Assembly: GCA_009914755.4 (NCBI GenBank)
Contig: CP086569.2
Location: 11,808,001 to 11,872,000 of the forward strand
DNA: 64,000 nucleotides
Reading direction: 5' to 3'
From: the human T2T-CHM13v2.0 reference genome, Homo sapiens
In this document: one piece after another, positions 2,396 to 62,039 of the stretch
How the letters are laid out: each line of letters opens with the position of its first letter
Numbering within the stretch: position 1 is the stretch's first letter
Translations under genes and position numbers: made by a program
The notes under the pieces: model-generated
What the model was told of the DNA's origin: nothing
Database searches by the model: none
What the model saw: only the letters and a program-made list of their open reading frames with translations

Positions 2396-2442
2396 GGAAT
2401 GGAATGGAATGGAATGGAATGGAATGGAATGGAATGGAATGG
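2396..2442. repeat. Example of a pure (GGAAT)n core tract (9 perfect pentamers) inside the HOR. Tracts like this are the substrates for slippage and unequal exchange.
   Basis: ggaatggaatggaatggaatggaatggaatggaatggaatggaat with no substitutions. Homologous tracts vary in copy number between HOR copies. Confidence 0.85.
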
Positions 2443-2545: not shown

Positions 2546-3100
2546 GGAATTGAATGGAATGTACGCGAATGGAATGGACTGGAATGCAATGGAGTGACAT
2601 GTAACGGAATCGAAAGGAATGGAATCCAATGAAATGGAATTGAATGGAATAGAAATGAATAGAATGGAATGGAGATTAACGGAAAGATATTAAAATAATG
2701 GAATGGAATTGAGTGGACACGAATGGAATGGACTGGAATGGAAAGGACTCAAATGAAAACGAGCGCAATAGAATGGACTCGAATGGAATGGATTGGAGTG
2801 GAATGGTCTCGAATGGATTGGAAAGGAATGGAATGGAAAGGAATAGAATGGAATGTAATCAAATGGAACGAAATGGAATGGAATGGATTCGACTGGAGCA
2901 GAATTGAATGGAGTGGATTTGAATGGAATGGAATGCAATCGAATGGAATGGACACGAATCGAATAGAATGAAATGTAATGGCATAGAATGGAATGGAATG
3001 GAATGGAATGGAATGGAATGGAACGGAATTGAATGTCATGGAATGGAATGGCATGGCATGGAATGGAATGGAATGGAATGGAATGAAATGGATTGGAATG

Positions 3101-34000: not shown

Positions 34001-34261
34001 AAGAGACAAATGGAATGGAAACGAATTCAATGGAATTGAAAAGAATAGGATGGAATGGCGTGTAATGGTAAGATACTAAATGGAATGGAATTGAATGGAA
34101 TGTAATGGACCCAAATTTAATGCACTCGAAAGGAATATACTCAAATAGAATGGAATCGAAAGGAAAGGTCTCAAATGGAATTTATTCAATACAATGGAAT
34201 CGAATGGAATGCAATAGAATGGAATGGAATCGAATATAATGGAATCAAATAGAATGGACCA
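28041..34261. repeat. HOR copy 6, 6221 bp, C-like in its 5' part and resembling the downstream haplotype in its 3' part. It contains a 660-bp internal duplication.
   Basis: The 5' part matches copy 5 (246-aa ORF at 28691..29431). From about 30.4 kb onward it shares variants with copies 7-12: NEMERIR rather than NENERIR at 31402..31596, ARNVMEW at 32202..32414, and the CpG gain ggaaCGtact at about 30322. The extra length comes from the duplication listed separately. Confidence 0.8.
30471..31790. repeat. Internal tandem duplication inside HOR copy 6. Copy 1 is about 30471-31130 and copy 2 about 31131-31790, that is 2 x about 660 bp.
   Basis: The string attcgaatggaatggaatcgaatggaatggaacgaatt...gtcaaaaacagtagaaa...tacgcgaatggaatggactggaatggaatggagtgacatgtaacgg...taaaataatggaatggaattgagtggacacgaatgg occurs at 30471 and again at 31131. 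The track shows the MDTNGMDWNGKDSNE... ORF twice, at 30743 and 31402, 659 bp apart. Both breakpoints sit in pure (GGAATGG)n runs at 30431-30470 and 31091-31130. Confidence 0.85.
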
Positions 34262-39814: not shown

Positions 39815-42800
39815 GAATGGAATGGACTGCCATAGAACGGACTGCAGTGTAATGGATTGAATTCTAATTCATTCAAATGGAATGGAATTGAATGGAATGG
39901 AATCCAATGGAATGGATAGGATTGTACTGGAATGGAATAGCATGGAATGCAACGGAGTGGAATGGAGTTGAATGAAGTGGAATGGAATCGATTGGAATGG
40001 AATCAAATGGAATGGACGGGAATGGAATGGACTGGAAGAGAACAGACTGGAATTTAATGGATTGCACTGTAATTGATTCAAATGGAATGGAATCGAATGG
40101 AATGTAATAAAATTGAAGGGATTTGAGTTCAATGCAATGGAATAGAATGGAATGCAAAGGAAAGGAAAGGTACGGAGTGAAATCGAGTGTAATGGAATCG
40201 AATGGAATGAAATGGAATGGAATGGACTCAAAAGAAATGGACGAGGGACAAAACGGAATCGAACTGATTGGAATCGAACGGAACGGAATGGAATGGAATG
40301 GTCTCCATTGGATCGGAGTAGAACGGACTGGAATGGAATGGAATGAAATGGAATGGAAAGGAATAGAATGGAATGGAATGGAATGGAATGGAATGGAAGG
40401 TAATGGAAAGATATCGAACGGATTGGAAAGGAATGGAATGCACCCTAATGGAATGGAATGGAATTCAACAGAAACGAATGGAATGGACTGGAGTGAAATG
40501 GAGTCGAATGTAATTGACTGGAGTGGAATGGACTCGAAAGGAATGGACTCGAATAGAATGGACTGGAATGGATTGTACTCGAATGGAGTGGAATGGAATA
40601 AAATGGATTCCACCAGATTGGAATGGAACAGAATGTAATGGAATGGAATGGAATGCAACGGAATAGCTCCAATGGAATGGAGTCGAATGCAATGGAACAG
40701 AAAGGAAAGGAATTGAATGGAATTGAAAGGAATAGAACAAAATGGAGTGCAAAGGAAAGATATCGAATGGAATGGATCGAAAAGAAATCGAATGGAATGG
40801 ACAGGAATGGAATGGAATAGAATGGAATAGACTGGCGTGCAATGAAAACGAATGGAATGGAAACGAATGGAATGCAATGGAAAGGAATGGAGTAGAATAA
40901 ATACTATGGAATGGAATGGAGGCGAAAGGAAAAGAATGGATTGGAATGTCACCGAATGGAAAGATATGGAATGGAAAGGAATGGATACGAATGGAATGGA
41001 ATAGAAAGGAACGGAAAGGTAAAGAATGGAATGGAATCGGATAGAATGGAATGCAATGTAATGGAGTCGAATGGAAAATAATCGTGTAGAATGATATCGA
41101 ATGGAATGGAATTGAATGGAATGGAATGGAATGGACTCGAATGGAATGTACTCAAATGGATTAGAATAGAATGGAATGGAATTAAACGTAATGAACTCGA
41201 ATGGAATGGACACAATTAGAATGGAAGAGAAAGGAATGGTATTGAATGGAATTTATTCGAATAGAGTGGAATTGAATGGAATGCAACAGTGTGGCATGGA
41301 ATCAAATGGAATGGAATCGAATGGAATGGACCCGAGTGGAATGGACTCACATAGAACAGCCTCGAATGTAATGGATGACAATGTATTAGATTCGAAAGGA
41401 CTGAAATCGAATGGAATGTAATCAAGTAGAACGGAATTGAATGCATGGAATGGCATGGAAAGTAACGCAATGGAATGGAATAGACTGGAATGGAATGGAA
41501 TCGGATGGAATGTAATGAAATGTAATGGAAGGAATGCCATGGAATGGAATGGAATGGAATGCAATGGGACGGTGTATAATGGAGTGCAATGGATTTCAGT
41601 GGAATGTAGTCAAAAGGAAAGAAATAGAATGGAATTCAATATAATGGAATGGCATCCAATGGCAAGGAATGGAGCGGACTCCAATGGAAACGACATGAAA
41701 GGAATATAATATAATGGAATGGCATTGAACGAAATGGAACGCAATGGAGTTAAAAGGTAAAATATCGAATGGAAAAGAATTGAATGGACTCGAAAGGAAT
41801 ATAATGGAATGGAATGGACTCGAATGGAATGTACTAGAGTTGAATGGAATCGAATGGAATGGAAAACAATGGAAAGGAAAGGAAAGGAATTGAAAGGAAA
41901 GGAATAGAATGGAATGGAATCGGATGGAACGGAATTGAATGGAATGGAAACTACAGGAATAGAATAGAAAGGAATCGCATTGAATGGAATGGAATGGAAT
42001 GGAATCAGATGGAACAGAAAGGAATGGAATAGAATCGAATGGAATGGCATCGAATGGATGGAATGGAATGGAATGGAATGGAATAGAAAGGAATGGAATG
42101 GACTCGAATGGAATGTACTCAAATGGAATAGAATAGAATGGAATGGAAGTAAATATAATGGACTCGAATGGAATGCATTGGAATAAATTGGAATTGAGTG
42201 TATTGGATTCGAATGGAAAGGAATGGAATGGAATGGAATGGAATGGAATGGAATGGAATGGATTCGAATGGAATGGAATCGAATGGAATGGAACGAATTG
42301 GAATGTAATTGAATGGAGTCAAAAACAGTAGAAAAAAATAAAGTTTCATCGAATGATATCGAATGGAATTGAATAGAATGTACGCGAATGGAATGGACTG
42401 GAATGGAATGGAGTGACATGTAACGGAATCGAAAGGAATGGAATCCAATGAAATGGAATTGAATGGAATAGAAATGAATAGAATGGAATGGAGATTAATG
42501 GAAAGATATTAAAATAATGGAATGGAATTGAGTGGACACGAATGGAATGGACTGGAATGGAAAGGACTCGAATGAAATGGAGCGCATTAGCATGGACTCG
42601 AATGGAATGGATTGGAGTGGAATGGTCTCGAATGGATTGGAATGGAATGGAATGGAAAGGAATAGAATGGAATGTAATCAAATGGAACGAAATGGAATGG
42701 AATGGATTCGACTGGAGCAGAATTGAATGGAGTGCAATTGAATGGAATGGAATGCAATCGAATGGAATGGACACGAATCGAATAGAATGAAATGAAATGG

Positions 42801-45379
42801 CATAGAATGGAATGGAATGGAATGGAATGGAATGGAATGGAATGGAATGGCATGGAATGGAATGACATGGCATGGCATGGCATGGAATGGAATGGAATGA
42901 AATGGATTGCAATGAGATGGGCCCAAAAGTAATAGACTCAAATAAAAAGGACTCAAATAGAATGAACTGGAAAGAAACGGTCTCGAATGTAATTTATTCG
43001 AATAGAATGATATTGAATGGAATGCAACAGTATGGAATGTTATCGAATAGAATGGAATAGAATGGAAGGGAATGGAACGGAATGGAGTGCAATTGAACGG
43101 ACTCAAATGCAATAAATTGCAATATAATTGATTCAAATGGAATGGAATCGAATAGAATGTAAACAAATGGAATGGAAGGCAATGCAATGGAAAGGATTCG
43201 AATGAAATGGAATAAATGGAATGGAATGGAATGGAAAGGACGCGAATATATTGGACTGTTAAGGAAAGGTGTCAAATCGAATTTATTCCAATAGAATGGA
43301 ATCGAATGGAATGCAATACTATTGAATCGAATCGAATGGAATGGAATTGAATGGAATGGACAGGAATTGGAATGAACTGGAAGTGAATGGACAGGAACGT
43401 AATATATTGCAATGTAATTTATTCAAATGGAATGGAATGCAATCGAATGGAATGGACTCGATTGGAATGGACTGGATTGGAATGGACTCAAATGGAATGA
43501 CAACGAATGTAATGGAATGGAATGGAAAGCAAAGGAATCTACTGGAATAGAATCGAACGGAACAGAAAGGAATGGAATGGAACGGAGTGGAATGGACTCG
43601 AATGGAATGTATTCGAATGTAATGGACCTAAAAAGGAATGGAATCCAATGGAATGGAATTGAATGGAATCAAAAGGAATAGAAAGGAATAGAGTGTAATT
43701 GAATATCGAAAGGAAGGGAATGGAATGAACTCGAATGGAATGCACTGGAATGAAATGGACTCGATGAGAACGGACTGGAGAGGAATGTACACAAAAGGAA
43801 TGGAAACGAATGGAATGGAATGAAATGGAATTGAAAGGAACGGAATCAAATGGAATGGAATGGAATGGAATGGATGGGAATAGGAGGGATTCAAATAAAA
43901 TAGAATCGATGGGAATGGTATTGAATGAAAGGGACTTGAATGGAATGCAAAGCAATGGAAGATATTGGAATCGAATGGCATCGAATGAAATGGAATGGAA
44001 CGGAATGGAACGGAACCGAATGGAATGGAATGGACTCAAATGTAATGGACACCAATGGAATCGACTGAAATATAATAGTGTCGAAAGGAATGGCCTCGAG
44101 TGGAATTTATTTGAATAGAATGGAATCAAATGGAATACAATACCATTGAATGGAATCGAATGGAATGGAATCGAATGGAATGTAATCAAATGGAATGGAA
44201 CGGAATTCAATATAAAGGAGTAGAATGGAATGCATTGGAAAGGAGCAGAGTGGAATCAAGTGGAATGGAATCGAGTGGAATGAAATCAATGGGAACAAAA
44301 TCGAATTGAATGGACTTGAATGGAATTGACTCGAAAGGAATGGACTGGAACAAAAAGGAATCAAATGGACAGGAATGGGATGGAATGGACCCGAATGGAA
44401 TGGAGTCAAATGCAAACGCATCGAATGGAATGGATTGAAATGGAATGCAATGGAATGGAACAGAAAGGAAGAGAATGGAATTGAGAGTAATGGAAAGATA
44501 TCGATTGGAATGAAATGGAATGGAAAGGAATTGAATGGAAAGGAATGGAGTGGAAAGAAATGGATTGGAATGGAATGGTCTCCAATGGAATGGACTGGAG
44601 TGGAATGGAATCGAATGGAATGAAAAGAATGGAACGGAATGGAACGGAAAGGAATAGAATGTTATGGAATCCGATTGGACAGAATGGAATGGAATGGAGT
44701 TTCATGAAATGGAGTCGAATAGAGTGGCATCAAAAGGAATGGAATGGAATGGAGTGGACTCAAAAGGAATGGACTCGAAAGGAATGGAGTCGAACCAAAC
44801 TGATTCAAATGGATTGAAGTCGAACAGAATGGAATGGAATGGAATGAACTCGACTGGAGTAGAGAGGAATGTAAAGGAATAGAATGGAATGTAATCAAAT
44901 GGATTGCAAGTGAATGGAATCAAAAATAATAGAAAGGAATGGAGTGTAAAGGGATGATATTGAATATAATGGAATGGAATGGAATTTAATGGAATGGAGA
45001 CGAAGGAATGGACAGGAATGTAATGGACTCCAATGGAATGGAATGGATCAAAATGGATTTGAACAGATTGGAATCGAACGGAATGGAATGCAATGGAATG
45101 GAATGGACTCGAATGGAGAAGAGACAAATGGAATGGAAACGAATTCAATGGAATTGAAAAGAATAGGATGGAATGGCGTGTAATGGTAAGATACTAAGTG
45201 GAATGGAATTGAATGGAATGTAATGGACCCAAATGTAATGCACTCGAAAGGAATATACTCAAATAGAATGGAATCGAAAGGAAAGGTCTCAAATGGAATT
45301 TATTCAATACAATGGAATCGAATGGAATGCAATAGAATGGAATGGAATCGAATGTAATGGAATCAAATAGAATGGACCA
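39815..45379. repeat. HOR copy 8, 5565 bp, variant D.
   Basis: The 446-aa minus ORF at 39873..41213 is a D marker, shared with 51018..52358 and 62098..63438. There is no ATAAT expansion at 41707-41716: the sequence is ataatataat followed by ggaatggcattgaacg. Confidence 0.85.
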
Positions 45380-48300
45380 GATTGGAATTGACTGCCATAG
45401 AACGGACTGCAGTGTAATGGATTGAATTCTAAATCATTCAAATGGAATGGAATTGAATGGAATGGAATCCAATGGAATGGATAGGATTGTACTGGAATGG
45501 AATAGCATGGAATGCAACGGAGTGGAATGGAGTTGAATGAAGTGGAATGGAATCGATTGGAATGGAATCAAATGGAATGGACGGGAATGGAAGGGACTGG
45601 AAGAGAACAGACTCGAATTTAATGGATTGCACTGTAATTGATTCAAATGGAATGGAATCGAATGGAATGTAATAAAATTGAAGGGATTTGAGTTCAATGC
45701 AATGGAGTAGAATGGAATGCAAAGGAAAGGAAAGGAACGGAGTGAAATCGAGTGTAATGGAATCGAATGGAATGAAATGGAATGGAATGGACTCAAAAGA
45801 AATGGACGAGGGACAAAACGGAATCGAACTGATTGGAATCGAACGGAACGGAATGGAATGGAATGGTCTCCATTGGATCGGAGTAGAACGGACTGGAATG
45901 GAATGGAATGAAATGGAATGGAAAGGAATAGAATGGAATGGAATGGAATGGAATGGAATGGAAGGTAATTGAAAGATATCGAACGGATTGGAAAGGAATG
46001 GAATGGACCCTAATGGAATGGAATGGAATTCAACAGAAACGAATGGAATGGACTGGAGTGAAATGGAGTCGAATGTAATTGACTGGAGTGGAATGGACTC
46101 GAAAGGAATGGACTCGAATAGAATGGACTGGAATGGATTGTACTCGAATGGAGTGGAAAGGAATAAAATGGATTCCACCAGATTGGAATGGAACAGAATG
46201 TAATGGAATGGAATGGAATGCAATGGAATAGCTCCAATGGAATGGAGTCGAATGCAATGGAACAGAAAGGAAAGGAATTGAATGGAATTGAAAGGAATAG
46301 AACAAAATGGAGTGCAAAGGAAAGATATCGAATGGAATGGATCGAAAAGAAATCGAATGGAATGGACAGGAATGGAATGGAATAGAATGGAATAGACTGG
46401 CGTGCAATCAAAACGAATGGAATGGAAACGAATGGAATACAATGGAAAGGAATGGAGTAGAATAAATACTATGGAATGGAATGGAGGCGAAAGGAAAAGA
46501 ATGGATTGGAATGTCGCCGAATGGAAAGCTATGGAATGGAAAGGAATGGATACGAATGGAATGGAATAGAAAGGAACGGAAAGGTAAAGAATGGAATGGA
46601 ATCGGATAGAATGGAATGCAATGTAATGGAGTCGAATGGAAAATAATCGAGTAGAATGATATCGAACGGACTGGAATTTAATAGAATGGAATGGAATGGA
46701 ATGGACTCGAATGGAATGTACTCAAATGGATTAGAATAGAATGGAGTGGAACTAAACGTAATGAACTCGAATGGAATGGACACAAATAGAATGGAAGAGA
46801 AAGGAATGGTATTGAATGGAATTTATTCGAATAGAGTGGAATTCAATGGAATGCAACAGTGTGGCATGGAATCAAATGGAATGGAATCGAATGGAATGGA
46901 CCCGAGTGGAATGGACTCACATAGAACAGCCTCGAATGTAATGGATGACAATGTATTAGATTCGAAAGGACTGAAATCAAATGGAATGTAATCAAGTAGA
47001 ACGGAATTGAATGCATGGAATGGCATAGAAAGTAACGCAATGGAATGGAATAGACTGGAATGGAATGGAATCGGATGGAATGTAATGAAATGTAATGGAA
47101 GGAATGCCATGGAATGGAATGGAATGGAATGCAATGGGACGGTGTATAATGGAGTGCAATGGATTTCAGTGGAATGTAGTCAAAAGGAAAGAAATAGAAT
47201 GGAATTCAATATAATGGAATGGCATCCAATGGCAAGGAATGGAGCGGACTCCAATGGAAACGACATGAAAGGAATATAATATAATGGAGTGGAATATAAT
47301 ATAATATAATATAATATAATATAATATAATATAATATAATGCAATGGAGTTAAAAGTTAAAATATCGAATGGAAAAGAATTGAATGGACTCGAAAGGAAT
47401 ATAATGGAATGGAATGGACTCGAATGGAATGTACTAGAGTTGAATGGAATCGAATGGAATGGAAAACAATGCAAGGGAAAGGAAAGGAATTGAAAGGAAA
47501 GGAATAGAATGGAATGGAATCGGATGGAACGGAATTGAATGGAATGGAAACTAAAGGAATAGAATAGAAAGGAATCGCATTGAATTGAATGGAATGGAAT
47601 GGAATCAGATGGAACAGAAAGGAATGGAATAGAATCGAATGGAATGGCATCGAATGGATGGAATGGAATGGAATGGAATGGAATAGAAAGGAATGGAATG
47701 GGCTCGAATGGAATGTACTCAAATGGAATAGAATAGAATGGAATGGAAGTAAATATAATGGACTCGAATGGAATGCATTGGAATAAATTGGAATTGAGTT
47801 TATTGGATTCGAATGGAAAGGAATGGAATGGAATGGAATGGAATGGAATGGATTCGAATGGAATGGAATCGAATGGAATGGAACGAATTGGAATGTAATT
47901 GAATGGAGTCAAAAACAGTAGAAAGAAAGAAAGTTTCATCGAATGATATCGAATGGAATTGAATGGAATGTACGCGAATGGAATGGAGTGACATGTAACG
48001 GAATCGAAAGGAATGGAATCCAATGAAATGGAATTGAATGGTATAGAAATGTATAGAATGGAATGGAGATTAATGGAAAGATATTAAAATAATGGAATGG
48101 AATTGAGTGGACACGAATGGAATGGACTGGAATGGAAAGGACTCGAATGAAATGGAGCGCATTAGAATGGACTCGAATGGAATGGATTGGAGTGGAATGG
48201 TCTCAAATGGATTGGAAAGGAATGGAATGGAAAGGAATAGAATGGAATGTAATCAAACGGAACGAAATTGAATGGAATGGATTCGACTGGAGCAGAATTG

Positions 48301-50959
48301 AATGGAGTGGAATTGAATGGAATGGAATGCAATCGAATGGAATGGACACGAATCGAATAGAATGAAATGAAATGGCATAGAATGGAATGGAATGGAATGG
48401 AATGGAATGGAATGGAATGGAATGGAATGGCATGGAATGGAATGACATGGCATGGCATGGCATGGAATGGAATGGAATGAAATTGATTGGAATGGGATGG
48501 GCCCAAAAGTAATAGACTCCAATAAAAAGGACTCAAATAGAATGAACTGGAAAGAAACGGTCTCGAATGTAATTTATTCGAATAGAATGATATTGAATGG
48601 AATGCAACAGTATGGAATGTTATCGAATAGAATGGAATAGAATGGAAGGGAATGGAACGGAATGGAGTGCAATTGAACGGACTCAAATGCAATAAATTGC
48701 AATATAATTGATTCAAATGGAATGGAATCGAATAGAATGTAAACAAATGGAATGGAAGGCAATGCAATGGAAAGGAATCGAATGAAATGGAATAAATGGA
48801 ATGGAATGGAATGGAAAGGACGCGAATATATTGGACTGTTAAGGAAAGGTGTCAAATCGAATTTATTCCAATAGAATGGAATCGAATGGAATGCAATACT
48901 ATTGAATCGAATCGAATGCAATGGAATTGAATGGAATGGACAGGAATTGGAATGAACTGGAAGTGAATGGACAGGAACGTAATATATTGCAATGTAATTT
49001 ATTCAAATGGAATGGAATGCAATCGAATGGAATGGACTCGATTGGAATGGACTGGAGTGGAATGGACTCAAATGGAATGGCAAGGAATGGAATGGAATGG
49101 AATGGAAAGCAAAGGAATCTACTGGAATAGAATCGAACGGAACAGAAAGGAATGGAATGGAACGGAGTGGAATGGACTCGAATGGAATGTATTCGAATGT
49201 AATGGACCTAAAAAGGAATGGAATCCAATGGAATGGAATTGAATGGAATCAAAAGGAATAGAAAGGAATAGAGTGTAATTGAATATCGAAAGGAAGGGAA
49301 TGGAATGAACTCGAATGGAATGCACTGGAATGAAATGGACTCGATCAGAACGGACTGGAGAGGAATGTACACAAAAGGAATGGAAACGAATGGAATGGAA
49401 TGAAATGGAATTGAAAGGAACGGAATCAAATGGAATGGAATGGAATGGAATGGATTGGAATAGAATGGATTCAAATAAAATAGAATCGATGGGAATGGTA
49501 TTGAATGAAAGGGACTTGAATGGAATGCAAAGCAATGGAAGATATTGGAATCGAATGGCATCGAATGAAATGGAATGGAACGGAATGGAACGGAACCGAA
49601 TGGAATGGAATGGACTCAAATGTAATGGACACCAATGGAATCGACTGAAATATAATAGTGTCGAAAGGAATGGCCTCGAGTGGAATTTATTTGAATAGAA
49701 TGGAATCAAATGGAATACAATACCATTGAATGGAATCGAATGGAATGGAATCGAATGGAATGTAATCAAATGGAATGGAACGGAATTCAATATAAAGGAG
49801 TAGAATGGAATGCATTGGAAAGGAGCAGAGTGGAATCAAGTGGAATGGAATCGAGTGGAATGGAATCAATGGGAACAAAATCGAATTGAATGGACTTGAA
49901 TGGAATTGACTCGAAAGGAATGGACTGGAACAAAAAGGAATCAAATGGACAGGAATGGGATGGAATGGACCCGAATGGAATGGAGTCAAATGCAAACGCA
50001 TCGAATGGAATGGATTGAAATGGAATGCAATGGAATGGAACAGAAAGGAAGAGAATGGAATTGAGAGTAATGGAAAGATATCGATTGGAATGAAATGGAA
50101 TGGAAAGGAATTGAATGGAAAGGAATGGAGTGGAAAGAAATGGATTGGAATGGAATGGTCTCCAATGGAATGGACTGGAGTGGAATGGAATCGAATGGAA
50201 TGAAAAGAATGGAACGGAATGGAACGGAAAGGAATAGAATGTTATGGAATCCGATTGGACAGAATGGAATGGAATGGAGTTTCATGAAATGGAGTCGAAT
50301 AGAGTGGCATCAAAAGGAATGGAATGGAATGGAGTGGACTCAAAAGGAATGGACTCGAAAGGAATGGAGTCGAACCAAACTGATTCAACTGGATTGAATT
50401 CGAACAGAATGGAATGGAATGGAATGAACTCGACTGGAGTAGAGAGGAATGTAAAGGAATAGAATGGAATGTAATCAAATGGATTGCAAGTGAATGGAAT
50501 CAAAAATAATAGAAAGGAATGGAGTGTAAAGGGATGATATTGAATATAATGGAATGGAATGGAATTTAATGGAATGGAGACGAAGGAATGGACAGGAATG
50601 TAATGGACTCCAATGGAATGGAATGGATCAAAATGGATTTGAACAGATTGGAATCGAACGGAATGGAATGCAATGGAATGGAATGGACTCGAATGGAGAA
50701 GAGACAAATGGAATGGAAACGAATTCAATGGAATTGAAAAGAATAGGATGGAATGGCGTGTAATGGTAAGATACTAAGTGGAATGGAATTGAATGGAATG
50801 TAATGGACCCAAATGTAATGCACTCGAAAGGAATATACTCAAATAGAATGGAATCGAAAGGAAAGGTCTCAAATGGAATTTATTCAATACAATGGAATCG
50901 AATGGAATGCAATAGAATGGAATGGAATCGAATGTAATGGAATCAAGTAGAATGGACCA
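45380..50959. repeat. HOR copy 9, 5580 bp, variant E.
   Basis: The 334-aa minus ORF at 45438..46442 is an E marker, shared with 56513..57517. There is an (ATAAT)9 expansion at 47296-47340. The anchor reads accagattggaattgactgcc. Confidence 0.85.
47296..47340. repeat. (ATAAT)9 microsatellite embedded in HOR copy 9.
   Basis: Nine perfect ataat units run directly after ggaatataatataatggagtggaat. The homologous site in copies 1-6 is ataataaaat and in copies 7, 8, 10 and 12 is ataatataat (2 units). The minus-strand ORF over this site reads YYIILYYIIL. Confidence 0.9.
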
Positions 50960-53900
50960 GAATGGAATGGACTGCCATAGAACGGACTGCAGTGTAATGG
51001 ATTGAATTCTAATTCATTCAAATGGAATGGAATTGAATGGAATGGAATCCAATGGAATGGATAGGATTGTACTGGAATGGAATAGCATGGAATGCAACGG
51101 AGTGGAATGGAGTTGAATGAAGTGGAATGGAATCGATTGGAATGGAATCAAATGGAATGGACGGGAATGGAATGGACTGGAAGAGAACAGACTGGAATTT
51201 AATGGATTGCACTGTAATTGATTCAAATGGAATGGAATCGAATGGAATGTAATAAAATTGAAGGGATTTGAGTTCAATGCAATGGAATAGAATGGAATGC
51301 AAAGGAAAGGAAAGGTACGGAGTGAAATCGAGTGTAATGGAATCGAATGGAATGAAATGGAATGGAATGGACTCAAAAGAAATGGACGAGGGACAAAACG
51401 GAATCGAACTGATTGGAATCGAACGGAACGGAATGGAACGGAATGGTCTCCATTGGATCGGAGTAGAACGGACTGGAATGGAATGGAATGAAATGGAATG
51501 GAAAGGAATAGAATGGAATGGAATGGAATGGAATGGAATGGAAGGTAATGGAAAGATATCGAACGGATTGGAAAGGAATGGAATGCACCCTAATGGAATG
51601 GAATGGAATTCAACAGAAACGAATGGAATGGACTGGAGTGAAATGGAGTCGAATGTAATTGACTGGAGTGGAATGGACTCGAAAGGAATGGACTCGAATA
51701 GAATGGACTGGAATGGATTGTACTCGAATGGAGTGGAATGGAATAAAATGGATTCCACCAGATTGGAATGGAACAGAATGTAATGGAATGGAATGGAATG
51801 CAACGGAATAGCTCCAATGGAATGGAGTCGAATGCAATGGAACAGAAAGGAAAGGAATTGAATGGAATTGAAAGGAATAGAACAAAATGGAGTGCAAAGG
51901 AAAGATATCGAATGGAATGGATCGAAAAGAAATCGAATGGAATGGACAGGAATGGAATGGAATAGAATGGAATAGACTGGCGTGCAATGAAAACGAATGG
52001 AATGGAAACGAATGGAATGCAATGGAAAGGAATGGAGTAGAATAAATACTATGGAATGGAATGGAGGCGAAAGGAAAAGAATGGATTGGAATGTCACCGA
52101 ATGGAAAGATATGGAATGGAAAGGAATGGATACGAATGGAATGGAATAGAAAGGAACGGAAAGGTAAAGAATGGAATGGAATCGGATAGAATGGAATGCA
52201 ATGTAATGGAGTCGAATGGAAAATAATCGTGTAGAATGATATCGAATGGAATGGAATTGAATGGAATGGAATGGAATGGACTCGAATGGAATGTACTCAA
52301 ATGGATTAGAATAGAATGGAATGGAACTAAACGTAATGAACTCGAATGGAATGGACACAATTAGAATGGAAGAGAAAGGAATGGTATTGAATGGAATTTA
52401 TTCGAATAGAGTGGAATTGAATGGAATGCAACAGTGTGGCATGGAATCAAATGGAATGGAATCGAATGGAATGGACCCGAGTGGAATGGACTCACATAGA
52501 ACAGCCTCGAATGTAATGGATGACAATGTATTAGATTCGAAAGGACTGAAATCGAATGGAATGTAATCAAGTAGAACGGAATTGAATGCATGGAATGGCA
52601 TAGAAAGTAACGCAATGGAATGGAATAGACTGGAATGGAATGGAATCGGATGGAATGTAATGAAATGTAATGGAAGGAATGCCATGGAATGGAATGGAAT
52701 GGAATGCAATGGGACGGTGTATAATGGAGTGCAATGGATTTCAGTGGAATGTAGTCAAAAGGAAAGAAATAGAATGGAATTCAATATAATGGAATGGCAT
52801 CCAATGGCAAGGAATGGAGCGGACTCCAATGGAAACGACATGAAAGGAATATAATATAATGGAATGGCATTGAACGAAATGGAACGCAATGGAGTTAAAA
52901 GGTAAAATATCGAATGGAAAAGAATTGAATGGACTCGAAAGGAATATAATGGAATGGAATGGACTCGAATGGAATGTACTAGAGTTGAATGGAATCGAAT
53001 GGAATGGAAAACAATGGAAAGGAAAGGAAGGGAATTGAAAGGAAAGGAATAGAATGGAATGGAATCGGATGGAACGGAATTGAATGGAATGGAAACTACA
53101 GGAATAGAATAGAAAGGAATCGCATTGAATGGAATGGAATGGAATGGAATCAGATGGAACAGAAAGGAATGGAATAGAATCGAATGGAATGGCATCGAAT
53201 GGATGGAATGGAATGGAATGGAATGGAATAGAAAGGAATGGAATGGACTCGAATGGAATGTACTCAAATGGAATAGAATAGAATGGAATGGAAGTAAATA
53301 TAATGGACTCGAATGGAATGCATTGGAATAAATTGGAATTGAGTGTATTGGATTCGAATGGAAAGGAATGGAATGGAATGGAATGGAATGGAATGGAATG
53401 GATTCGAATGGAATGGAATCGAATGGAATGGAACGAATTGGAATGTAATTGAATGGAGTCAAAAACAGTAGAAAGAAATAAAGTTTCATCGAATGATATC
53501 GAATGGAATTGAATAGAATGTACGCGAATGGAATGGACTGGAATGGAATGGAGTGACATGTAACGGAATCGAAAGGAATGGAATCCAATGAAATGGAATT
53601 GAATGGAATAGAAATGAATAGAATGGAATGGAGATTAATGGAAAGATATTAAAATAATGGAATGGAATTGAGTGGACACGAATGGAATGGACTGGAATGG
53701 AAAGGACTCAAATGAAATGGAGCGCATTAGCATGGACTCGAATGGAATGGATTGGAGTGGAATGGTCTCGAATGGATTGGAATGGAATGGAATGGAAAGG
53801 AATAGAATGGAATGTAATCAAATGGAACGAAATTGAATGGAATGGATTCGACTGGAGCAGAATTGAATGGAGTGCAATTGAATGGAATGGAATGCAATCG

Positions 53901-56454
53901 AATGGAATGGACACGAATCGAATAGAATGAAATGAAATGGCATAGAATGGAATGGAATGGAATGGAATGGAATGGAATGGAATGGAATGGAATGGAATGG
54001 AATGGAATGGAATGGAATGGCATGGAATGGAATGACATGGCATGGCATGGCATGGAATGGAATGGAATGAAATGGATTGGAATGAGATGGGCCCAAAAGT
54101 AATAGACTCAAATAAAAAGGACTCAAATAGAATGAACTGGAAAGAAACGGTCTCGAATGTAATTTATTCGAATAGAATGATATTGAATGGAATGCAACAG
54201 TATGGAATGTTATCGAATAGAATGGAATAGAATGGAAGGGAATGGAACGGAATGGAGTGCAATTGAACGGACTCAAATGCAATAAATTGCAATATAATTG
54301 ATTCAAATGGAATGGAATCGAATAGAATGTAAACAAATGGAATGGAAGGCAATGCAATGGAAAGGATTCGAATGAAATGGAATAAATGGAATGGAATGGA
54401 ATGGAAAGGACGCGAATATATTGGACTGTTAAGGAAAGGTGTCAAATCGAATTTATTCCAATAGAATGGAATCGAATGGAATGCAATACTATTGAATCGA
54501 ATCGAATGGAATGGAATTGAATGGAATGGACAGGAATTGGAATGAACTGGAAGTGAATGGACAGGAACGTAATATATTGCAATGTAATTTATTCAAATGG
54601 AATGGAATGCAATCGAATGGAATGGACTCGATTGGAATGGACTGGATTGGAATGGACTCAAATGGAATGACAACGAATGTAATGGAATGGAATGGAAAGC
54701 AAAGGAATCTACTGGAATAGAATCGAACGGAACAGAAAGGAATGGAATGGAACGGAGTGGAATGGACTCGAATGGAATGTATTCGAATGTAATGGACCTA
54801 AAAAGGAATGGAATCCAATGGAATGGAATTGAATGGAATCAAAAGGAATAGAAAGGAATAGAGTGTAATTGAATATCGAAAGGAAGGGAATGGAATGAAC
54901 TCGAATGGAATGCACTGGAATGAAATGGACTCGATGAGAACGGACTGGAGAGGAATGTACACAAAAGGAATGGAAACGAATGGAATGGAATGAAATGGAA
55001 TTGAAAGGAACGGAATCAAATGGAATGGAATGGAATGGAATGGATGGGAATAGGAGGGATTCAAATAAAATAGAATCGATGGGAATGGTATTGAATGAAA
55101 GGGACTTGAATGGAATGCAAAGCAATGGAAGATATTGGAATCGAATGGCATCGAATGAAATGGAATGGAACGGAATGGAACGGAACCGAATGGAATGGAA
55201 TGGACTCAAATGTAATGGACACCAATGGAATCGACTGAAATATAATAGTGTCGAAAGGAATGGCCTCGAGTGGAATTTATTTGAATAGAATGGAATCAAA
55301 TGGAATACAATACCATTGAATGGAATCGAATGGAATGGAATCGAATGGAATGTAATCAAATGGAATGGAACGGAATTCAATATAAAGGAGTAGAATGGAA
55401 TGCATTGGAAAGGAGCAGAGTGGAATCAAGTGGAATGGAATCGAGTGGAATGGAATCAATGGGAACAAAATCGAATTGAATGGACTTGAATGGAATTGAC
55501 TCGAAAGGAATGGACTGGAACAAAAAGGAATCAAATGGACAGGAATGGGATGGAATGGACCCGAATGGAATGGAGTCAAATGCAAACGCATCAAATGGAA
55601 TGGATTGAAATGGAATGCAATGGAATGGAACAGAAAGGAAGTGAATGGAATGGTCTCCAATGGAATGGACTGGAGTGGAATGGAATCGAATGGAATGAAA
55701 AGAATGGAACGGAATGGAACGGAAAGGAATAGAATGTTATGGAATCCGATTGGACAGAATGGAATGGAATGGAGTTTCATGAAATGGAGTCGAATAGAGT
55801 GGCATCAAAAGGAATGGAATGGAATGGAGTGGACTCAAAAGGAATGGACTCGAAAGGAATGGAGTCCAACAAAACTGATTCAAATGGATTGAAGTCGAAC
55901 AGAATGGAATGGAATGGAATGAACTCGACTGGAGTAGAGAGGAATGTAAAGGAATAGAATGGAATGTAATCAAATGGATTGCAAGTGAATGGAATCAAAA
56001 ATAATAGAAAGGAATGGAGTGTAAAGGGATGATATTGAATATAATGGAATGGAATGGAATTTAATGGAATGGAGACGAAGGAATGGACAGGAATGTAATG
56101 GACTCCAATGGAATGGAATGGATCAAAATGGATTTGAACAGATTGGAATCGAACGGAATGGAATGCAATGGAATGGAATGGACTCGAATGGAGAAGAGAC
56201 AAATGGAATGGAAACGAATTCAATGGAATTGAAAAGAATAGGATGGAATGGCGTGTAATGGTAAGATACTAAGTGGAATGGAATTGAATGGAATGTAATG
56301 GACCCAAATTTAATGCACTCGAAAGGAATATACTCAAATAGAATGGAATCGAAAGGAAAGGTCTCAAATGGAATTTATTCAATACAATGGAATCGAATGG
56401 AATGCAATAGAATGGAATGGAATCGAATGTAATGGAATCAAATAGAATGGACCA
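50960..56454. repeat. HOR copy 10, 5495 bp, variant D, with a 95-bp deletion and a +25-bp (GGAAT)n tract expansion.
   Basis: The 446-aa ORF at 51018..52358 is identical in structure to that of copy 8. The deletion junction lies at about 55641-55650. The pure GGAAT run at 53941-54020 is 5 pentamers longer than in copy 8. Confidence 0.85.
55636..55655. other. Junction of a 95-bp deletion private to HOR copy 10.
   Basis: Copy 10 reads cagaaaggaagtgaatggaatggtctccaatgg. Copies 8 and 9 have about 108 bp (gagaatggaattgagagtaatggaaagatatcgattgg...aaatggattggaatggaatgg) between cagaaaggaa and tctccaatgg. In the track, two ORFs fuse into the 167-aa ORF at 55277..55780. Confidence 0.8.
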
Positions 56455-59400
56455 GATTGGAATGGACTGCCATAGAACGGACTGCAGTGTAATGGATTGA
56501 ATTCTAAATCATTCAAATGGAATGGAATTGAATGGAATGGAATCCAATGGAATGGATAGGATTGTACTGGAATGGAATAGCATGGAATGCAACGGAGTGG
56601 AATGGAGTTGAATGAAGTGGAATGGAATCGATTGGAATGGAATCAAATGGAATGGACGGGAATGGAAGGGACTGGAAGAGAACAGACTCGAATTTAATGG
56701 ATTGCAATGTAATTGATTCAAATGGAATGGAATCGAATGGAATGTAATAAAATTGAAGGGATTTGAGTTCAATGCAATGGAGTAGAATGGAATGCAAAGG
56801 AAAGGAAAGGAACGGAGTGAAATCGAGTGTAATGGAATCGAATGGAATGAAATGGAATGGAATGGACTCAAAAGAAATGGACGAGGGACAAAACGGAATC
56901 GAACTGATTGGAATCGAACGGAACGGAATGGAATGGAATGGTCTCCATTGGATCGGAGTAGAACGGACTGGAATGGAATGGAATGAAATGGAATGGAAAG
57001 GAATAGAATGGAATGGAATGGAATGGAATGGAATGGAAGGTAATTGAAAGATATCGAACGGATTGGAAAGGAATGGAATGGACCCTAATGGAATGGAATG
57101 GAATTCAACAGAAACGAATGGAATGGACTGGAGTGAAATGGAGTCGAATGTAATTGACTGGAGTGGAATGGACTCGAAAGGAATGGACTCGAATAGAATG
57201 GACTGGAATGGATTGTACTCGAATGGAGTGGAAAGGAATAAAATGGATTCCACCAGATTGGAATGGAACAGAATGTAATGGAATGGAATGGAATGCAATG
57301 GAATAGCTCCAATGGAATGGAGTCGAATGCAATGGAACAGAAAGGAAAGGAATTGAATGGAATTGAAAGGAATAGAACAAAATGGAGTGCAAAGGAAAGA
57401 TATCGAATGGAATGGATCGAAAAGAAATCGAATGGAATGGACAGGAATGGAATGGAATAGAATGGAATAGACTGGCGTGCAATCAAAACGAATGGAATGG
57501 AAACGAATGGAATACAATGGAAAGGAATGGAGTAGAATAAATACTATGGAATGGAATGGAGGCGAAAGGAAAAGAATGGATTGGAATGTCGCCGAATGGA
57601 AAGCTATGGAATGGAAAGGAATGGATACGAATGGAATGGAATAGAAAGGAACGGAAAGGTAAAGAATGGAATGGAATCGGATAGAATGGAATGCAATGTA
57701 ATGGAGTCGAATGGAAAATAATCGAGTAGAATGATATCGAACGGACTGGAATTTAATAGAATGGAATGGAATGGAATGGACTCGAATGGAATGTACTCAA
57801 ATGGATTAGAATAGAATGGAGTGGAACTAAACGTAATGAACTCGAATGGAATGGACACAAATAGAATGGAAGAGAAAGGAATGGTATTGAATGGAATTTA
57901 TTCGAATAGAGTGGAATTCAATGGAATGCAACAGTGTGGCATGGAATCAAATGGAATGGAATCGAATGGAATGGACCCGAGTGGAATGGACTCACATAGA
58001 ACAGCCTCGAATGTAATGGATGACAATGTATTAGATTCGAAAGGACTGAAATCGAATGGAATGTAATCAAGTAGAACGGAATTGAATGCATGGAATGGCA
58101 TAGAAAGTAACGCAATGGAATGGAATAGACTGGAATGGAATGGAATCGGATGGAATGTAATGAAATGTAATGGAAGGAATGCCATGGAATGGAATGGAAT
58201 GGAATGCAATGGGACGGTGTATAATGGAGTGCAATGGATTTCAGTGGAATGTAGTCAAAATGAAAGAAATAGAATGGAATTCAATATAATGGAATGGCAT
58301 CCAATGGCAAGGAATGGAGCGGACTCCAATGGAAACGACATGAAAGGAATATAATATAATGGAGTGGAATATAATATAATATAATATAATATAATATAAT
58401 ATAATATAATATAATATAATGCAATGGAGTTAAAAGGTAAAATATCGAATGGAAAAGAATTGAATGGACTCGAAAGGAATATAATGGAATGGAATGGACT
58501 CGAATGGAATGTACTAGAGTTGAATGGAATCGAATGGAATGGAAAACAATGCAAGGGAAAGGAAAGGAATTGAAAGGAAAGGAATAGAATGGAATGGAAT
58601 CGGATGGAACGGAATTGAATGGAATGGAAACTAAAGGAATAGAATAGAAAGGAATCGCATTGAATTGAATGGAATGGAATGGAATCAGATGGAACAGAAA
58701 GGAATGGAATAGAATCGAATGGAATGGCATCGAATGGATGGAATGGAATGGAATGGAATGGAATAGAAAGGAATGGAATGGACTCGAATGGAATGTACTC
58801 AAATGGAATAGAATAGAATGGAATGGAAGTAAATATAATGGACTCGAATGGAATGCATTGGAATAAATTGGAATTGAGTTTATTGGATTCGAATGGAAAG
58901 GAATGGAATGGAATGGAATGGAATGGATTCGAATGGAATGGAATCGAATGGAATGGAACGAATTGGAATGTAATTGAATGGAGTCAAAAACAGTAGAAAG
59001 AAATAAAGTTTCATCGAATGATATCGAATGGAATTGAATGGAATGTACGCGAATGGAATGGAGTGACATGTAACGGAATCGAAAGGAATGGAATCCAATG
59101 AAATGGAATTGAATGGTATAGAAATGTATAGAATGGAATGGAGATTAATGGAAAGATATTAAAATAATGGAATGGAATTGAGTGGACACGAATGGAATGG
59201 ACTGGAATGGAAAGGACTCGAATGAAATGGAGCGCATTAGAATGGACTCGAATGGAATGGATTGGAGTGGAATGGTCTCAAATGGATTGGAAAGGAATGG
59301 AATGGAAAGGAATAGAATGGAATGTAATCAAACGGAACGAAATTGAATGGAATGGATTCGACTGGAGCAGAATTGAATGGAGTGGAATTGAATGGAATGG

Positions 59401-62039
59401 AATGCAATCGAATGGAATGGACACGAATCGAATAGAATGAAATGAAATGGCATAGAATGGAATGGAATGGAATGGAATGGAATGGAATGGAATGGAATGG
59501 AATGGAATGGCATGGAATGGAATGACATGGCATGGCATGGCATGGAATGGAATGGAATGAAATTGATTGGAATGGGATGGGCCCAAAAGTAATAGACTCC
59601 AATAAAAAGGACTCAAATAGAATGAACTGGAAAGAAACGGTCTCGAATGTAATTTATTCGAATAGAATGATATTGAATGGAATGCAACAGTATGGAATGT
59701 TATCGAATAGAATGGAATAGAATGGAAGGGAATGGAACGGAATGGAGTGCAATTGAACGGACTCAAATGCAATAAATTGCAATATAATTGATTCAAATGG
59801 AATGGAATCGAATAGAATGTAAACAAATGGAATGGAAGGCAATGCAATGGAAAGGAATCGAATGAAATGGAATAAATGGAATGGAATGGAATGGAAAGGA
59901 CGCGAATATATTGGACTGTTAAGGAAAGGTGTCAAATCGAATTTATTCCAATAGAATGGAATCGAATGGAATGCAATACTATTGAATCGAATCGAATGCA
60001 ATGGAATTGAATGGAATGGACAGGAATTGGAATGAACTGGAAGTGAATGGACAGGAACGTAATATATTGCAATGTAATTTATTCAAATGGAATGGAATGC
60101 AATCGAATGGAATGGACTCGATTGGAATGGACTGGAGTGGAATGGACTCAAATGGAATGGCAAGGAATGGAATGGAATGGAATGGAAAGCAAAGGAATCT
60201 ACTGGAATAGAATCGAACGGAACAGAAAGGAATGGAATGGAACGGAGTGGAATGGACTCGAATGGAATGTATTCGAATGTAATGGACCTAAAAAGGAATG
60301 GAATCCAATGGAATGGAATTGAATGGAATCAAAAGGAATAGAAAGGAATAGAGTGTAATTGAATATCGAAAGGAAGGGAATGGAATGAACTCGAATGGAA
60401 TGCACTGGAATGAAATGGACTCGATCAGAACGGACTGGAGAGGAATGTACACAAAAGGAATGGAAACGAATGGAATGGAATGAAATGGAATTGAAAGGAA
60501 CGGAATCAAATGGAATGGAATGGAATGGAATGGATTGGAATAGAATGGATTCAAATAAAATAGAATCGATGGGAATGGTATTGAATGAAAGGGACTTGAA
60601 TGGAATGCAAAGCAATGGAAGATATTGGAATCGAATGGCATCGAATGAAATGGAATGGAACGGAATGGAACGGAACCGAATGGAATGGAATGGACTCAAA
60701 TGTAATGGACACCAATGGAATCGACTGAAATATAATAGTGTCGAAAGGAATGGCCTCGAGTGGAATTTATTTGAATAGAATGGAATCAAATGGAATACAA
60801 TACCATTGAATGGAATCGAATGGAATGGAATCGAATGGAATGTAATCAAATGGAATGGAACGGAATTCAATATAAAGGAGTAGAATGGAATGCATTGGAA
60901 AGGAGCAGAGTGGAATCAAGTGGAATGGAATCGAGTGGAATGGAATCAATGGGAACAAAATCGAATTGAATGGACTTGAATGGAATTGACTCGAAAGGAA
61001 TGGACTGGAACAAAAAGGAATCAAATGGACAGGAATGGGATGGAATGGACACGAATGGAATGGAGTCAAATGCAAACGCATCGAATGGAATGGATTGAAA
61101 TGGAATGCAATGGAATGGAACAGAAAGGAAGAGAATGGAATTGAGAGTAATGGAAAGATATCGATTGGAATGAAATGGAATGGAAAGGAATTGAATGGAA
61201 AGGAATGGAGTGGAAAGAAATGGATTGGAATGGAATGGTCTCCAATGGAATGGACTGGAGTGGAATGGAATCGAATGGAATGAAAAGAATGGAACGGAAT
61301 GGAACGGAAAGGAATAGAATGTTATGGAATCAGATTGGACAGAATGGAATGGAATGGAGTTTCATGAAATGGAGTCGAATAGAGTGGCATCAAAAGGAAT
61401 GGAATGGAATGGAGTGGACTCAAAAGGAATGGACTCGAAAGGAATGGAGTCGAACCAAACTGATTCAACTGGATTGAATTCGAACAGAATGGAATGGAAT
61501 GGAATGAACTCGACTGGAGTAGAGAGGAATGTAAAGGAATAGAATGGAATGTAATCAAATGGATTGCAAGTGAATGGAATCAAAAATAATAGAAAGGAAT
61601 GGAGTGTAAAGGGATGATATTGAATATAATGGAATGGAATGGAATTTAATGGAATGCAGACGAAGGAATGGACAGGAATGTAATGGACTCCAATGGAATG
61701 GAATGGATCAAAATGGATTTGAACAGATTGGAATCGAACGGAATGGAATGCAATGGAATGGAATGGACTCGAATGGAGAAGAGACAAATGGAATGGAAAC
61801 GAATTCAATGGAATTGAAAAGAATAGGATGGAATGGCGTGTAATGGTAAGATACTAAATGGAATGGAATTGAATGGAATGTAATGGACCCAAATGTAATG
61901 CACTCGAAAGGAATATACTCAAATAGAATGGAATCGAAAGGAAAGGTCTCAAATGGAATTTATTCAATACAATGGAATCGAATGGAATGCAATAGAATGG
62001 AATGGAATCGAATGTAATGGAATCAAATAGAATGGACCA
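56455..62039. repeat. HOR copy 11, 5585 bp, variant E.
   Basis: The 334-aa ORF at 56513..57517 is identical in structure to that of copy 9. There is an (ATAAT)10 tract at 58371-58420. Confidence 0.85.
58371..58420. repeat. (ATAAT)10 microsatellite embedded in HOR copy 11.
   Basis: Ten perfect ataat units sit at the same HOR position as 47296-47340. This tract is one unit longer than the one in copy 9. Confidence 0.9.

What the first reader, a model, noticed from the sequence alone, without database searches (positions are those of the whole stretch)
47271..47345. Birth and expansion of an (ATAAT)n microsatellite inside the satellite, present only in E-type HOR copies
The homologous site reads ataataaaat (interrupted) in copies 1-6 and ataatataat (2 perfect units) in copies 7, 8, 10 and 12. 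In copies 9 and 11 it reads ataatataat ggagtggaat followed by (ataat)9 and (ataat)10, and the expansion replaces about 25 bp of ggaatggcattgaacgaaatggaa. This captures three stages in one array: an interrupted seed, a perfect 2-unit seed, and an expanded tract whose length varies between copies (9 versus 10). AT-rich pentamer arrays of this kind can be fragile or strongly nucleosome-positioning.
Basis: seen in the sequence. Interest (0 to 1): 0.5.

Follow-up and report, generated by a model that had tools for sequence, protein, structure and literature searches.

The report
AATAT microsatellite nested in HSat3 satellite
A 45-50 bp run of the five-base unit ATAAT sits inside two copies of a 5.6 kb repeat of human satellite 3 DNA; it is real, arose once and was then copied, and is an ordinary, probably neutral microsatellite rather than a three-stage record of how one is born.

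Summary
(ATAAT)9 lies at 47296-47340 and (ATAAT)10 at 58371-58420. Copies 7, 8, 10 and 12 read ATAATATAAT at the homologous site; copies 1-6 read ATAATAAAAT.

The staged-birth reading holds only in part.
1. Fifteen of 16 related human-derived metagenome contigs, including the most divergent, carry ATAATATAAT. A tree places the ATAATAAAAT copies as one nested clade. So the "interrupted seed" is a later point mutation, not a precursor.
2. The long tract does not touch the 2-unit motif. GGAGTGGAAT separates them, and the tract replaces 18-25 bp, so simple in-place slippage cannot explain it.
3. Copies 9 and 11 are the same half of an ~11.1 kb dimer repeat (99.5% identical). The two tracts therefore record one birth plus a one-unit slip.
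4. The two long (GGAAT)n runs of the unit also differ by exactly one pentamer between these two units, so 9 versus 10 is routine.
5. The tract shows no hairpin potential and is far shorter than AT-rich fragile sites.

The window is HSat3. It matches only the HSat3A3 marker 24-mer, a subfamily reported as almost entirely Y-chromosomal. No second sample carrying the tract was found. Interest is low.

The parts
47276..47285 (+). (ATAAT)2 motif, copy 9; unchanged ancestral state
   Evidence: same 10 bp in copies 7, 8, 10, 12 and in 15 of 16 metagenome contigs
47286..47295 (+). GGAGT GGAAT spacer between the motif and the tract, copy 9. GGAGTGG is retained ancestral GGAATGG with an A>G change at 47289 found only in copies 9 and 11
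   Evidence: GGAGTGGAATATAAT occurs only at these two places in the window
47296..47340 (+). (ATAAT)9 microsatellite, copy 9; the perfectly periodic stretch is 47293-47340 (48 bp)
58351..58360 (+). (ATAAT)2 motif, copy 11
58361..58370 (+). GGAGT GGAAT spacer, copy 11
58371..58420 (+). (ATAAT)10 microsatellite, copy 11; the perfectly periodic stretch is 58368-58420 (53 bp)
41706..41750 (+). Unexpanded ancestral-type site in copy 8: ATAAT ATAAT GGAAT GGCAT TGAAC GAAAT GGAAC GCAAT GGAGT. The same state starts at 36157, 52851 and 63931
1882..1891 (+). ATAATAAAAT, the derived T>A state of domain 1. The same state is at 7489, 13106, 18708, 24315 and 29922
   Evidence: polarity
41676..52820 (+). First ~11.1 kb dimer (units 8 + 9); the tract-bearing site lies at the junction of its two halves
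   Evidence: identity matrix; 24-mer spacings of 11075 and 11080
52821..63900 (+). Second ~11.1 kb dimer (units 10 + 11), a duplicate of the first

Best explanation
The window is human satellite 3 (HSat3), organised as a ~5.6 kb nested tandem repeat. The only subfamily marker it matches is that of HSat3A3, which the literature places almost entirely on the Y chromosome.

The tract is an ordinary (AATAT)n pentanucleotide microsatellite, and it is a derived state. The proposed history is:
1. The ancestral site read GGAAT ATAAT ATAAT GGAAT GGCAT TGAAC GAAAT GGAAx GCAAT.
2. In one lineage of repeat units, a single complex event or short series of events created a pure ATAAT run. It kept the five-base register and occurred next to the only (ATAAT)2 of the unit. 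It replaced 18-25 bp and is accompanied by an A>G change 4 bp from the tract.
3. The left junction, GGA(A>G)TGG|AATATAATATAAT, is exactly what a 20-bp backward slip would produce, that is, a tandem duplication of AATATAATATAATGGAATGG. That step would have placed a second ATAAT block downstream. The block then grew by replication slippage while the sequence to its right was lost in register.
4. The unit carrying the tract was next duplicated as part of an ~11.1 kb two-unit block, by unequal exchange between sister chromatids or an equivalent process.
5. After that duplication, one copy gained or lost one unit by slippage, giving 9 versus 10.
6. Separately, domain 1 acquired a T>A change that broke its 2-unit motif.

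Shown: the derived state, a single origin shared by two dimer copies, non-contiguity with the 2-unit motif, preservation of the register, and the routine nature of one-unit differences. Inferred: the 20-bp duplication step, the order of events, the exchange mechanism, and neutrality.
For: Family:
- TRF consensus is AATGG across 62-63973.
- Periods are 5.5-5.6 kb.
- Of 14 subfamily marker 24-mers from Table 1 of PMC4022460, only the HSat3A3 one matches exactly: 11 hits, about one per repeat unit.
- HSat3A3 is described as almost entirely on chrY.
- Contigs up to 99.6% identical occur in metagenome assemblies, one of them labelled human skin.

Derived state and polarity:
- All 16 external contigs have the unexpanded 65-bp anchor spacing.
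- Fifteen of 16 carry ATAATATAAT.
- In the tree, the A-state copies and the copies with the tract are two separate nested clades.

Single origin:
- Unit 9 vs 11 is 99.52% identical, 8 vs 10 is 99.73%, and 8 vs 9 is 98.75%.
- Copies 9 and 11 share the A>G at 47289 and the unique junction GGAGTGGAATATAAT.

Link to the 2-unit motif without in-place growth:
- (ATAAT)2 occurs once per 5.6 kb unit, and the tract lies 10 bp from it.
- No copy has 3 units.

Register: the net change is +30 or +35 bp.

Routine slippage:
- The two long (GGAAT)n runs per unit vary by multiples of 5 bp between nearly all units.
- Each differs by exactly one pentamer between units 9 and 11 (33 vs 28 bp and 51 vs 56 bp), as the AATAT tract does (48 vs 53 bp).
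- Runs of 33 bp or less are mostly fixed within a domain.
Against: - No intermediate form was found (a 3-5 unit tract, or the 20-bp duplication without expansion), so the birth pathway is a reconstruction needing at least three steps.
- Only two copies with the tract are visible, and the window ends at copy 12.
- No independent sample carrying the tract was recovered, so assembly accuracy and population frequency are unverified.
- The Y-chromosome placement rests on one marker 24-mer plus the literature.
- The polarity argument uses short-read metagenome contigs, which may be collapsed consensus sequences of many copies.
Confidence: 0.8

Rival explanations
1. One reading: interrupted seed (ATAATAAAAT), then a perfect 2-unit seed (ATAATATAAT), then in-place slippage expansion, all three stages preserved in one array.
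For: All three states exist at one homologous site. TRF can read the motif, spacer and tract together as one interrupted AATAT array of 13.6 copies at 90% matches. The tract lies next to the only (ATAAT)2 in the unit.
Against: The outgroup contigs and the tree make ATAATAAAAT derived. The tract is separated from the motif by retained ancestral GGA(A>G)TGG, and the motif is still 2 units. None of 19 T-state copies has 3 units. In-place growth would need a later back-conversion of two units to GGAGT GGAAT.
Confidence: 0.08
2. Import: the GGAGT GGAAT (ATAAT)n block was copied into the tract-bearing unit type by gene conversion or a template switch from a donor elsewhere, either another part of the array or another HSat3 array. 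It was not generated locally.
For: The change is a replacement of 18-25 bp with a sharp left junction plus an adjacent substitution, a pattern conversion tracts can give. Gene conversion is reported for Y-chromosome satellite DNA.
Against: No donor exists in the 64 kb window: GGAGTGGAATATAAT with up to 1 mismatch occurs only at the two tracts, and (ATAAT)3 occurs nowhere else. None was found in the 16 related contigs or in the viral or prokaryote collections. A position 10 bp from the only local (ATAAT)2 would then be a coincidence.
Confidence: 0.08
3. Assembly or sequencing artefact: the tract, or the 9 versus 10 difference, comes from read errors or mis-assembly in a satellite.
For: No independent sample with the tract was found. 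Satellites are hard to assemble.
Against: The tract appears twice, in two units that differ at other positions. Both have identical unique junctions and in-register lengths. The same two units also differ by one pentamer at both long GGAAT runs, which fits real slippage. A 45-50 bp pentamer run is not a typical error mode for accurate long reads (my own background knowledge, not tested).
Confidence: 0.03
4. Functional element: the AT-rich tract, recurring every 11 kb, acts as a fragile site, a nucleosome-excluding or nucleosome-positioning element, or a binding site for AT-hook proteins.
For: GC content falls to 10% over 50 bp, against 30-48% around it. AATAT repeats are a binding platform in Drosophila (background knowledge). 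The tract removes several GGAAT-type pentamers, and GGAATG is the TEAD motif core described for HSat3.
Against: The tract is 48-53 bp. It has no hairpin potential beyond shuffles (-2.8 and -1.8 kcal/mol, z-scores 0.66 and 0.52). It is present in only one of several unit types, absent from all 16 external contigs, and not constant in length. These are marks of a neutral variant.
Confidence: 0.02

Closest known systems
Variant-pentamer simple repeats nested in HSat2/HSat3, e.g. (ACTCC)n/(GGAGT)n and AATGG-AATGG-AGTGG arrays (PMC11305138; PMC11477012)
   Same: A single variant of the ancestral AATGG pentamer forms its own pure tandem run inside a larger HSat3 repeat, in the same five-base register.
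   Different: Those arrays are abundant: ACTCC averages about 13 kb per genome and forms annotated regions on chr14 and chr15. This tract is 45-50 bp per copy. Its unit differs from GGAAT at two positions and lacks G and C entirely.
Ordinary genomic (AATAT)n pentanucleotide microsatellites
   Same: Same motif; pure head-to-tail units; one-unit length change between copies, consistent with replication slippage. AATAT is a listed human simple repeat of the AT-rich group, averaging about 7.1 kb per genome.
   Different: This one is embedded in, and amplified together with, a satellite repeat unit. Its copy number therefore follows duplication of the 11 kb block as well as slippage.
Nested tandem repeats (NTRs) of HSat3, such as the ~3.6 kb DYZ1/HSat3A6 unit
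   Same: A multi-kilobase repeat unit built from diverged CATTC/GGAAT pentamers. Blocks of near-identical units suggest unequal exchange.
   Different: Here the unit is ~5.6 kb, with a local ~11.1 kb two-unit super-period. The only marker 24-mer matched is that of HSat3A3, not A6.
Drosophila AATAT satellite
   Same: Identical repeat unit.
   Different: That satellite is megabase-scale and has a dedicated binding protein (background knowledge). The resemblance here is in motif only.

Membership tests
Human satellite 3 (HSat3) | Derived from tandem (CATTC)n/(GGAAT)n pentamers | tested here: met
   TRF gives consensus AATGG (periods 10 and 15) over 62-63973. There are many perfect GGAAT runs. Strand composition is A 41%, G 30%, T 21%, C 8%.
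Human satellite 3 (HSat3) | Human origin | tested here: inconclusive
   Sixteen metagenome contigs match the site, at up to 99.6% identity over 1.1 kb; one is labelled human skin metagenome. No human genome assembly could be searched.
HSat3 subfamily A3 (reported as almost entirely chrY) | Carries subfamily-specific 24-mers (Altemose 2014, Table 1) | tested here: met
   CTTTACACTCCATTCCTTTCTATT has 11 exact hits, about one per unit. The 13 marker 24-mers of the other subfamilies have 0 exact hits. Only the single most common marker per subfamily was available.
HSat3 subfamily A3 (reported as almost entirely chrY) | Located on the Y chromosome | not testable with these tools
   Literature only. 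Whether this corresponds to DYZ17 or to the neighbouring HSat3 block was not established.
Nested tandem repeat / higher-order repeat | Multi-kilobase unit repeated head to tail at high identity | tested here: met
   Anchor spacings are 5500-5617 bp, with one of 6235 bp. Unit identities are 98.1-99.98%.
Microsatellite (short tandem repeat) | Pure tandem run of a 1-6 bp unit, well beyond chance | tested here: met
   9 and 10 perfect units. 15 matches of (ATAAT)3 against 0.01 expected. TRF scores 101 and 111.
Microsatellite (short tandem repeat) | Length change in whole units | tested here: met
   48 vs 53 bp between two 99.5% identical units. The long GGAAT runs behave the same way.
Microsatellite (short tandem repeat) | Length polymorphism among individuals | not tested
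   No second sample carrying the tract was recovered.
AT-rich fragile site (expanded AT-rich repeat type) | AT-rich repeat of hundreds of bp to kb that forms stable secondary structure (definition from background knowledge) | tested here: not met
   The tract is 48-53 bp. DNA minimum free energy is -2.8 and -1.8 kcal/mol, and 147 and 143 of 200 shuffles fold at least as well.

The most novel reading that the evidence does not exclude
The tract could be a recent, lineage-specific marker of one sub-block of a Y-linked HSat3A3 array. Counting the units that carry it, and measuring their tract lengths across Y haplogroups, would then give a direct readout of unequal-exchange and slippage rates in a non-recombining satellite. 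Less likely, an AT-only patch recurring every 11 kb could alter local chromatin, for example through AT-hook protein binding or loss of TEAD-type GGAATG sites.
Probability: 0.1. Interest if true: 0.35.

Novelty: new member of a known kind. Interest (0 to 1): 0.15.

Why it matters
It matters little by itself. It is a clean small example of how a satellite repeat unit gains an internal microsatellite and how that variant then spreads by block duplication. The corrected polarity is a caution against reading co-existing states in a tandem array as a time series without an outgroup. If the array is Y-linked, the tract could serve as a convenient marker for following sub-block amplification among Y lineages.

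Tried and rejected
**Searches for the tract in other samples**
- Exact-pattern scans for the site in prokaryote genome contigs found nothing.
- Scans for the left junction in prokaryote contigs and viral contigs found nothing.
- Scans of viral contigs for the right junction, for a generic TGGAAT(ATAAT)4 and for the site found nothing.
It returned 16 unexpanded contigs and none with the tract.

**Protein route**
- The reverse strand has no stop codons through the tract, where it reads (IILYY)n.
- A 117-aa peptide spanning the tract was searched against the 5.8-billion-protein set. It returned 4 weak, generic HSat-type spurious ORFs, none with the tract.
- Exact look-ups of the 262-aa and 285-aa ORFs found nothing.

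**Other attempts**
- A blastn of the contigs against the window timed out on the repeats. It was replaced by MAFFT on 1.1 kb slices.
- A donor for the block was sought inside the window and not found.
- Hairpin potential was tested and rejected.
- A cluster of mutations around the tract was sought. Only one change specific to copies 9 and 11 lies adjacent to the tract, and five others are scattered over 1.1 kb.
- The 16-bp TRF hits at 48932 and 60012 looked specific to the tract-bearing units. They merely cross the score threshold because of a 1-bp insertion shared by units 8-11.
- Literature searches for ATAAT or AATAT within HSat3 or Y-chromosome satellite III found no description of this tract.

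Full report
**What is there**

The whole window is a (GGAAT)n-derived satellite. TRF reports a single AATGG-type array from 62 to 63973. Spacings between identical 24-mers peak at 5607, 5602, 5617 and 5580 bp, with a secondary series at 11075-11080 bp. A 30-bp anchor just left of the finding occurs 12 times, with spacings of 5607, 5617, 5602, 5607, 5607, 6235, 5549, 5570, 5575, 5500 and 5580 bp.

Directly after the anchor:
- Copies 1-6 read ATAATAAAAT.
- Copies 7, 8, 10 and 12 read ATAATATAAT.
- Copies 9 and 11 read ATAATATAAT GGAGT GGAAT, then (ATAAT)9 at 47296-47340 or (ATAAT)10 at 58371-58420, then GCAAT GGAGT.

The other copies have GGAAT GGCAT TGAAC GAAAT GGAA[T/C] where copies 9 and 11 have GGAGT GGAAT plus the tract. 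(ATAAT)3 occurs 15 times, all inside the two tracts, against 0.01 expected. Run locally, TRF calls AATAT x13.6 and x14.6.

**What the surrounding repeat is**

I tested the 14 "most common subfamily-specific 24-mers" of Altemose et al. 2014 (PMC4022460, Table 1). Only the HSat3A3 marker matches exactly, with 11 hits, about one per unit; all the others have 0 exact hits. The literature describes HSat3A3 as Y-specific, or "almost entirely found on chrY". The same authors call such multi-kilobase HSat units nested tandem repeats rather than higher-order repeats.

A scan of metagenome contigs with a pattern covering all three site states returned 16 contigs. One is labelled human skin metagenome. 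Their identity to the window over 1.1 kb ranges from 84% to 99.6%. Human origin is thus well supported. Y linkage is a literature-based inference from one marker.

**Array structure**

I aligned the 11 complete units, each defined from one anchor to the next:
- Units 1-5 are 99.57-99.98% identical (domain 1).
- Units 6 and 7 are each about 98.3-98.7% identical to everything else.
- Unit 8 vs 10 is 99.73% identical and unit 9 vs 11 is 99.52%, while 8 vs 9 is only 98.75%.

The right-hand part of the window is therefore an ~11.1 kb two-unit repeat. Copies 9 and 11 are the same half of it. The two tracts also share a junction found nowhere else in the window (GGAGTGGAATATAAT) and the adjacent A>G at 47289. 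They are two descendants of one birth event, not two expansions.

**Polarity of the 2-unit motif**

Fifteen of the 16 external contigs read ATAATATAAT. Only L013 reads ATAATAAAAT, and L013 is the contig closest to domain 1 (99.64%). The contigs most distant from the window (L003 at 84%, L008 at 89%, L006 and L012 at 93%) all carry the T state.

I built a neighbour-joining tree on the 1.1 kb around the site, with the site columns removed. It places c1-c6 plus L013 as a single nested clade, sister to c7. It places c9 plus c11 as a separate nested clade. All remaining branches carry the T state. ATAATATAAT is therefore ancestral. ATAATAAAAT is a later T>A change in the domain-1 lineage, and the tract is an independent derived state. 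The three states form a fork, not a series.

One caveat applies. Metagenome contigs are short-read assemblies and may be consensus sequences of many copies.

**How the tract relates to the motif**

All 16 external contigs have the unexpanded 65-bp spacing between the left and right anchors, so the expansion is derived. But it is not an in-place expansion:
- In copies 9 and 11 the motif is still two units.
- The ancestral GGAATGG after the motif is retained, with one A>G change.
- The periodic stretch begins only after that. It replaces 18 bp by the MAFFT view, or 25 bp in five-base units.
- None of 19 unexpanded T-state copies (4 in the window, 15 external) has three units, so the 2-unit motif shows no tendency to slip.

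Even so, (ATAAT)2 occurs only once per 5.6 kb unit, and the tract lies 10 bp from it. The motif is therefore very likely the source of the repeat unit.

The left junction GGA(A>G)TGG|AAT ATAAT ATAAT is exactly what a 20-bp backward slip would give, that is, a tandem duplication of AATATAATATAATGGAATGG. I propose this order of events: that duplication, then slippage growth of the new block together with in-register loss of the 25 bp to its right, plus the A>G change. This is inference. No intermediate was seen. A single complex template-switch event, or import from an unseen donor, cannot be excluded. The net change of +30 or +35 bp keeps the pentamer register.

**Is 9 versus 10 notable?**

No. 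I tabulated every perfect pentamer run across the 11 units. The two long GGAAT runs per unit vary by multiples of 5 bp between almost all units:
- First run: 48, 53, 43, 43, 43, 42, 24, 43, 33, 38, 28 bp.
- Second run: 38, 43, 38, 43, 43, 56, 46, 46, 51, 76, 56 bp.

Each differs by exactly one pentamer between units 9 and 11 (33 vs 28 bp and 51 vs 56 bp), just as the AATAT tract does (48 vs 53 bp). Runs of 33 bp or less are mostly constant within a domain. One-unit slippage of long pure runs is the normal behaviour of this array.

**Function**

- GC content drops to 10% across the tract.
- Single-strand DNA folding gives -2.8 and -1.8 kcal/mol, no better than shuffles.
- The tract is 48-53 bp, far below the AT-rich repeat expansions associated with fragile sites (background knowledge).
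- It is found in one unit type only, varies in length, and is absent from every external contig.

These points fit a neutral variant.

**Comparison with what is known**

Pure runs of variant pentamers nested in HSat3 are already described. Examples are (ACTCC)n/(GGAGT)n and AATGG-AATGG-AGTGG (PMC11305138; PMC11477012). AATAT is a listed human simple repeat of the AT-rich group. I found no description of this particular tract. It is a new instance of a known kind.

**Search for the tract elsewhere**

Every route failed. I tried junction patterns in prokaryote and viral contigs. I ran a protein search with the reverse-strand peptide that reads through the tract as (IILYY)n. I also ran exact look-ups of the two ORFs spanning the tract. 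It needs human long-read assemblies, which these tools do not hold.

**Verdict**

The tract is a real, derived (AATAT)9-10 microsatellite of single origin, confined to one unit type. It was amplified with an 11 kb block and then changed by one unit. The supposed "interrupted seed" stage is a later mutation, and the tract did not grow directly out of the 2-unit motif. Interest is low.

Noticed in passing
window 30357-31674 (unit 6, 29892-36126): Unit 6 is 6235 bp because it carries a 659-bp tandem duplication: 31016-31674 repeats the preceding 659 bp, with 412 shared 24-mers at spacing 659. It lies at the border between the homogeneous domain 1 (units 1-5) and the dimeric domain (units 8-11). 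Units 6 and 7 are each about 98.3-98.7% identical to everything else.
   Followed up: partly
window 3052-3061, 31751-31765, 37317-37326, 42866-42885, 48446-48465, 54036-54055, 59526-59545: A second variant-pentamer run, (CATGG)n, has 2 units in domain 1, 3 in unit 6, 2 in unit 7 (with a 10-bp deletion) and 4 in units 8-11. Neighbouring AATGG units decrease as CATGG units increase, so total length is unchanged between domain 1 and units 8-11. This is a stepwise series contiguous in one place, but its polarity was not tested.
   Followed up: partly
window 2396-2440 and 2986-3020, and their homologues in every unit (e.g. 53945-54019): Each unit has two long perfect (GGAAT)n runs that are hypervariable. 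They span 24-53 bp and 38-76 bp across the 11 units, always in steps of 5 bp (with 1-2 bp differences at the ends in a few units), and differ even between units 99.5-99.98% identical. Runs of 33 bp or less are mostly fixed within a domain, which suggests a practical slippage threshold of about 7 units in this array.
   Followed up: yes
window 18678-29891 (units 4 and 5): Units 4 and 5 are 99.98% identical with no gaps, far closer than any other pair. This points to a very recent single-unit duplication or conversion inside domain 1. Variants in units 1-5 (gcaat vs gtaat; gaaat vs gaaag) partly alternate, hinting at an older two-unit pattern there too.
   Followed up: no
window reverse strand, e.g. 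47166-48023 and 58281-59069: The CATTC strand has long stop-free reading frames (285 and 262 aa) that run straight through the tract as (IILYY)n. Similar spurious HSIPF-type 'proteins' from short NCBI contigs are present in the protein database (P0001-P0004).
   Followed up: partly
L001-L016 (metagenome contigs): Sixteen public metagenome assemblies, one labelled human skin, contain contigs of 1.2-9 kb of this HSat3 repeat at 84-99.6% identity. These are probably human DNA assembled as part of metagenomes. L010 and L015 (about 9 kb) contain only one copy of the site although they are longer than one 5.6 kb unit, so they may be chimeric or come from a differently organised array.
   Followed up: no
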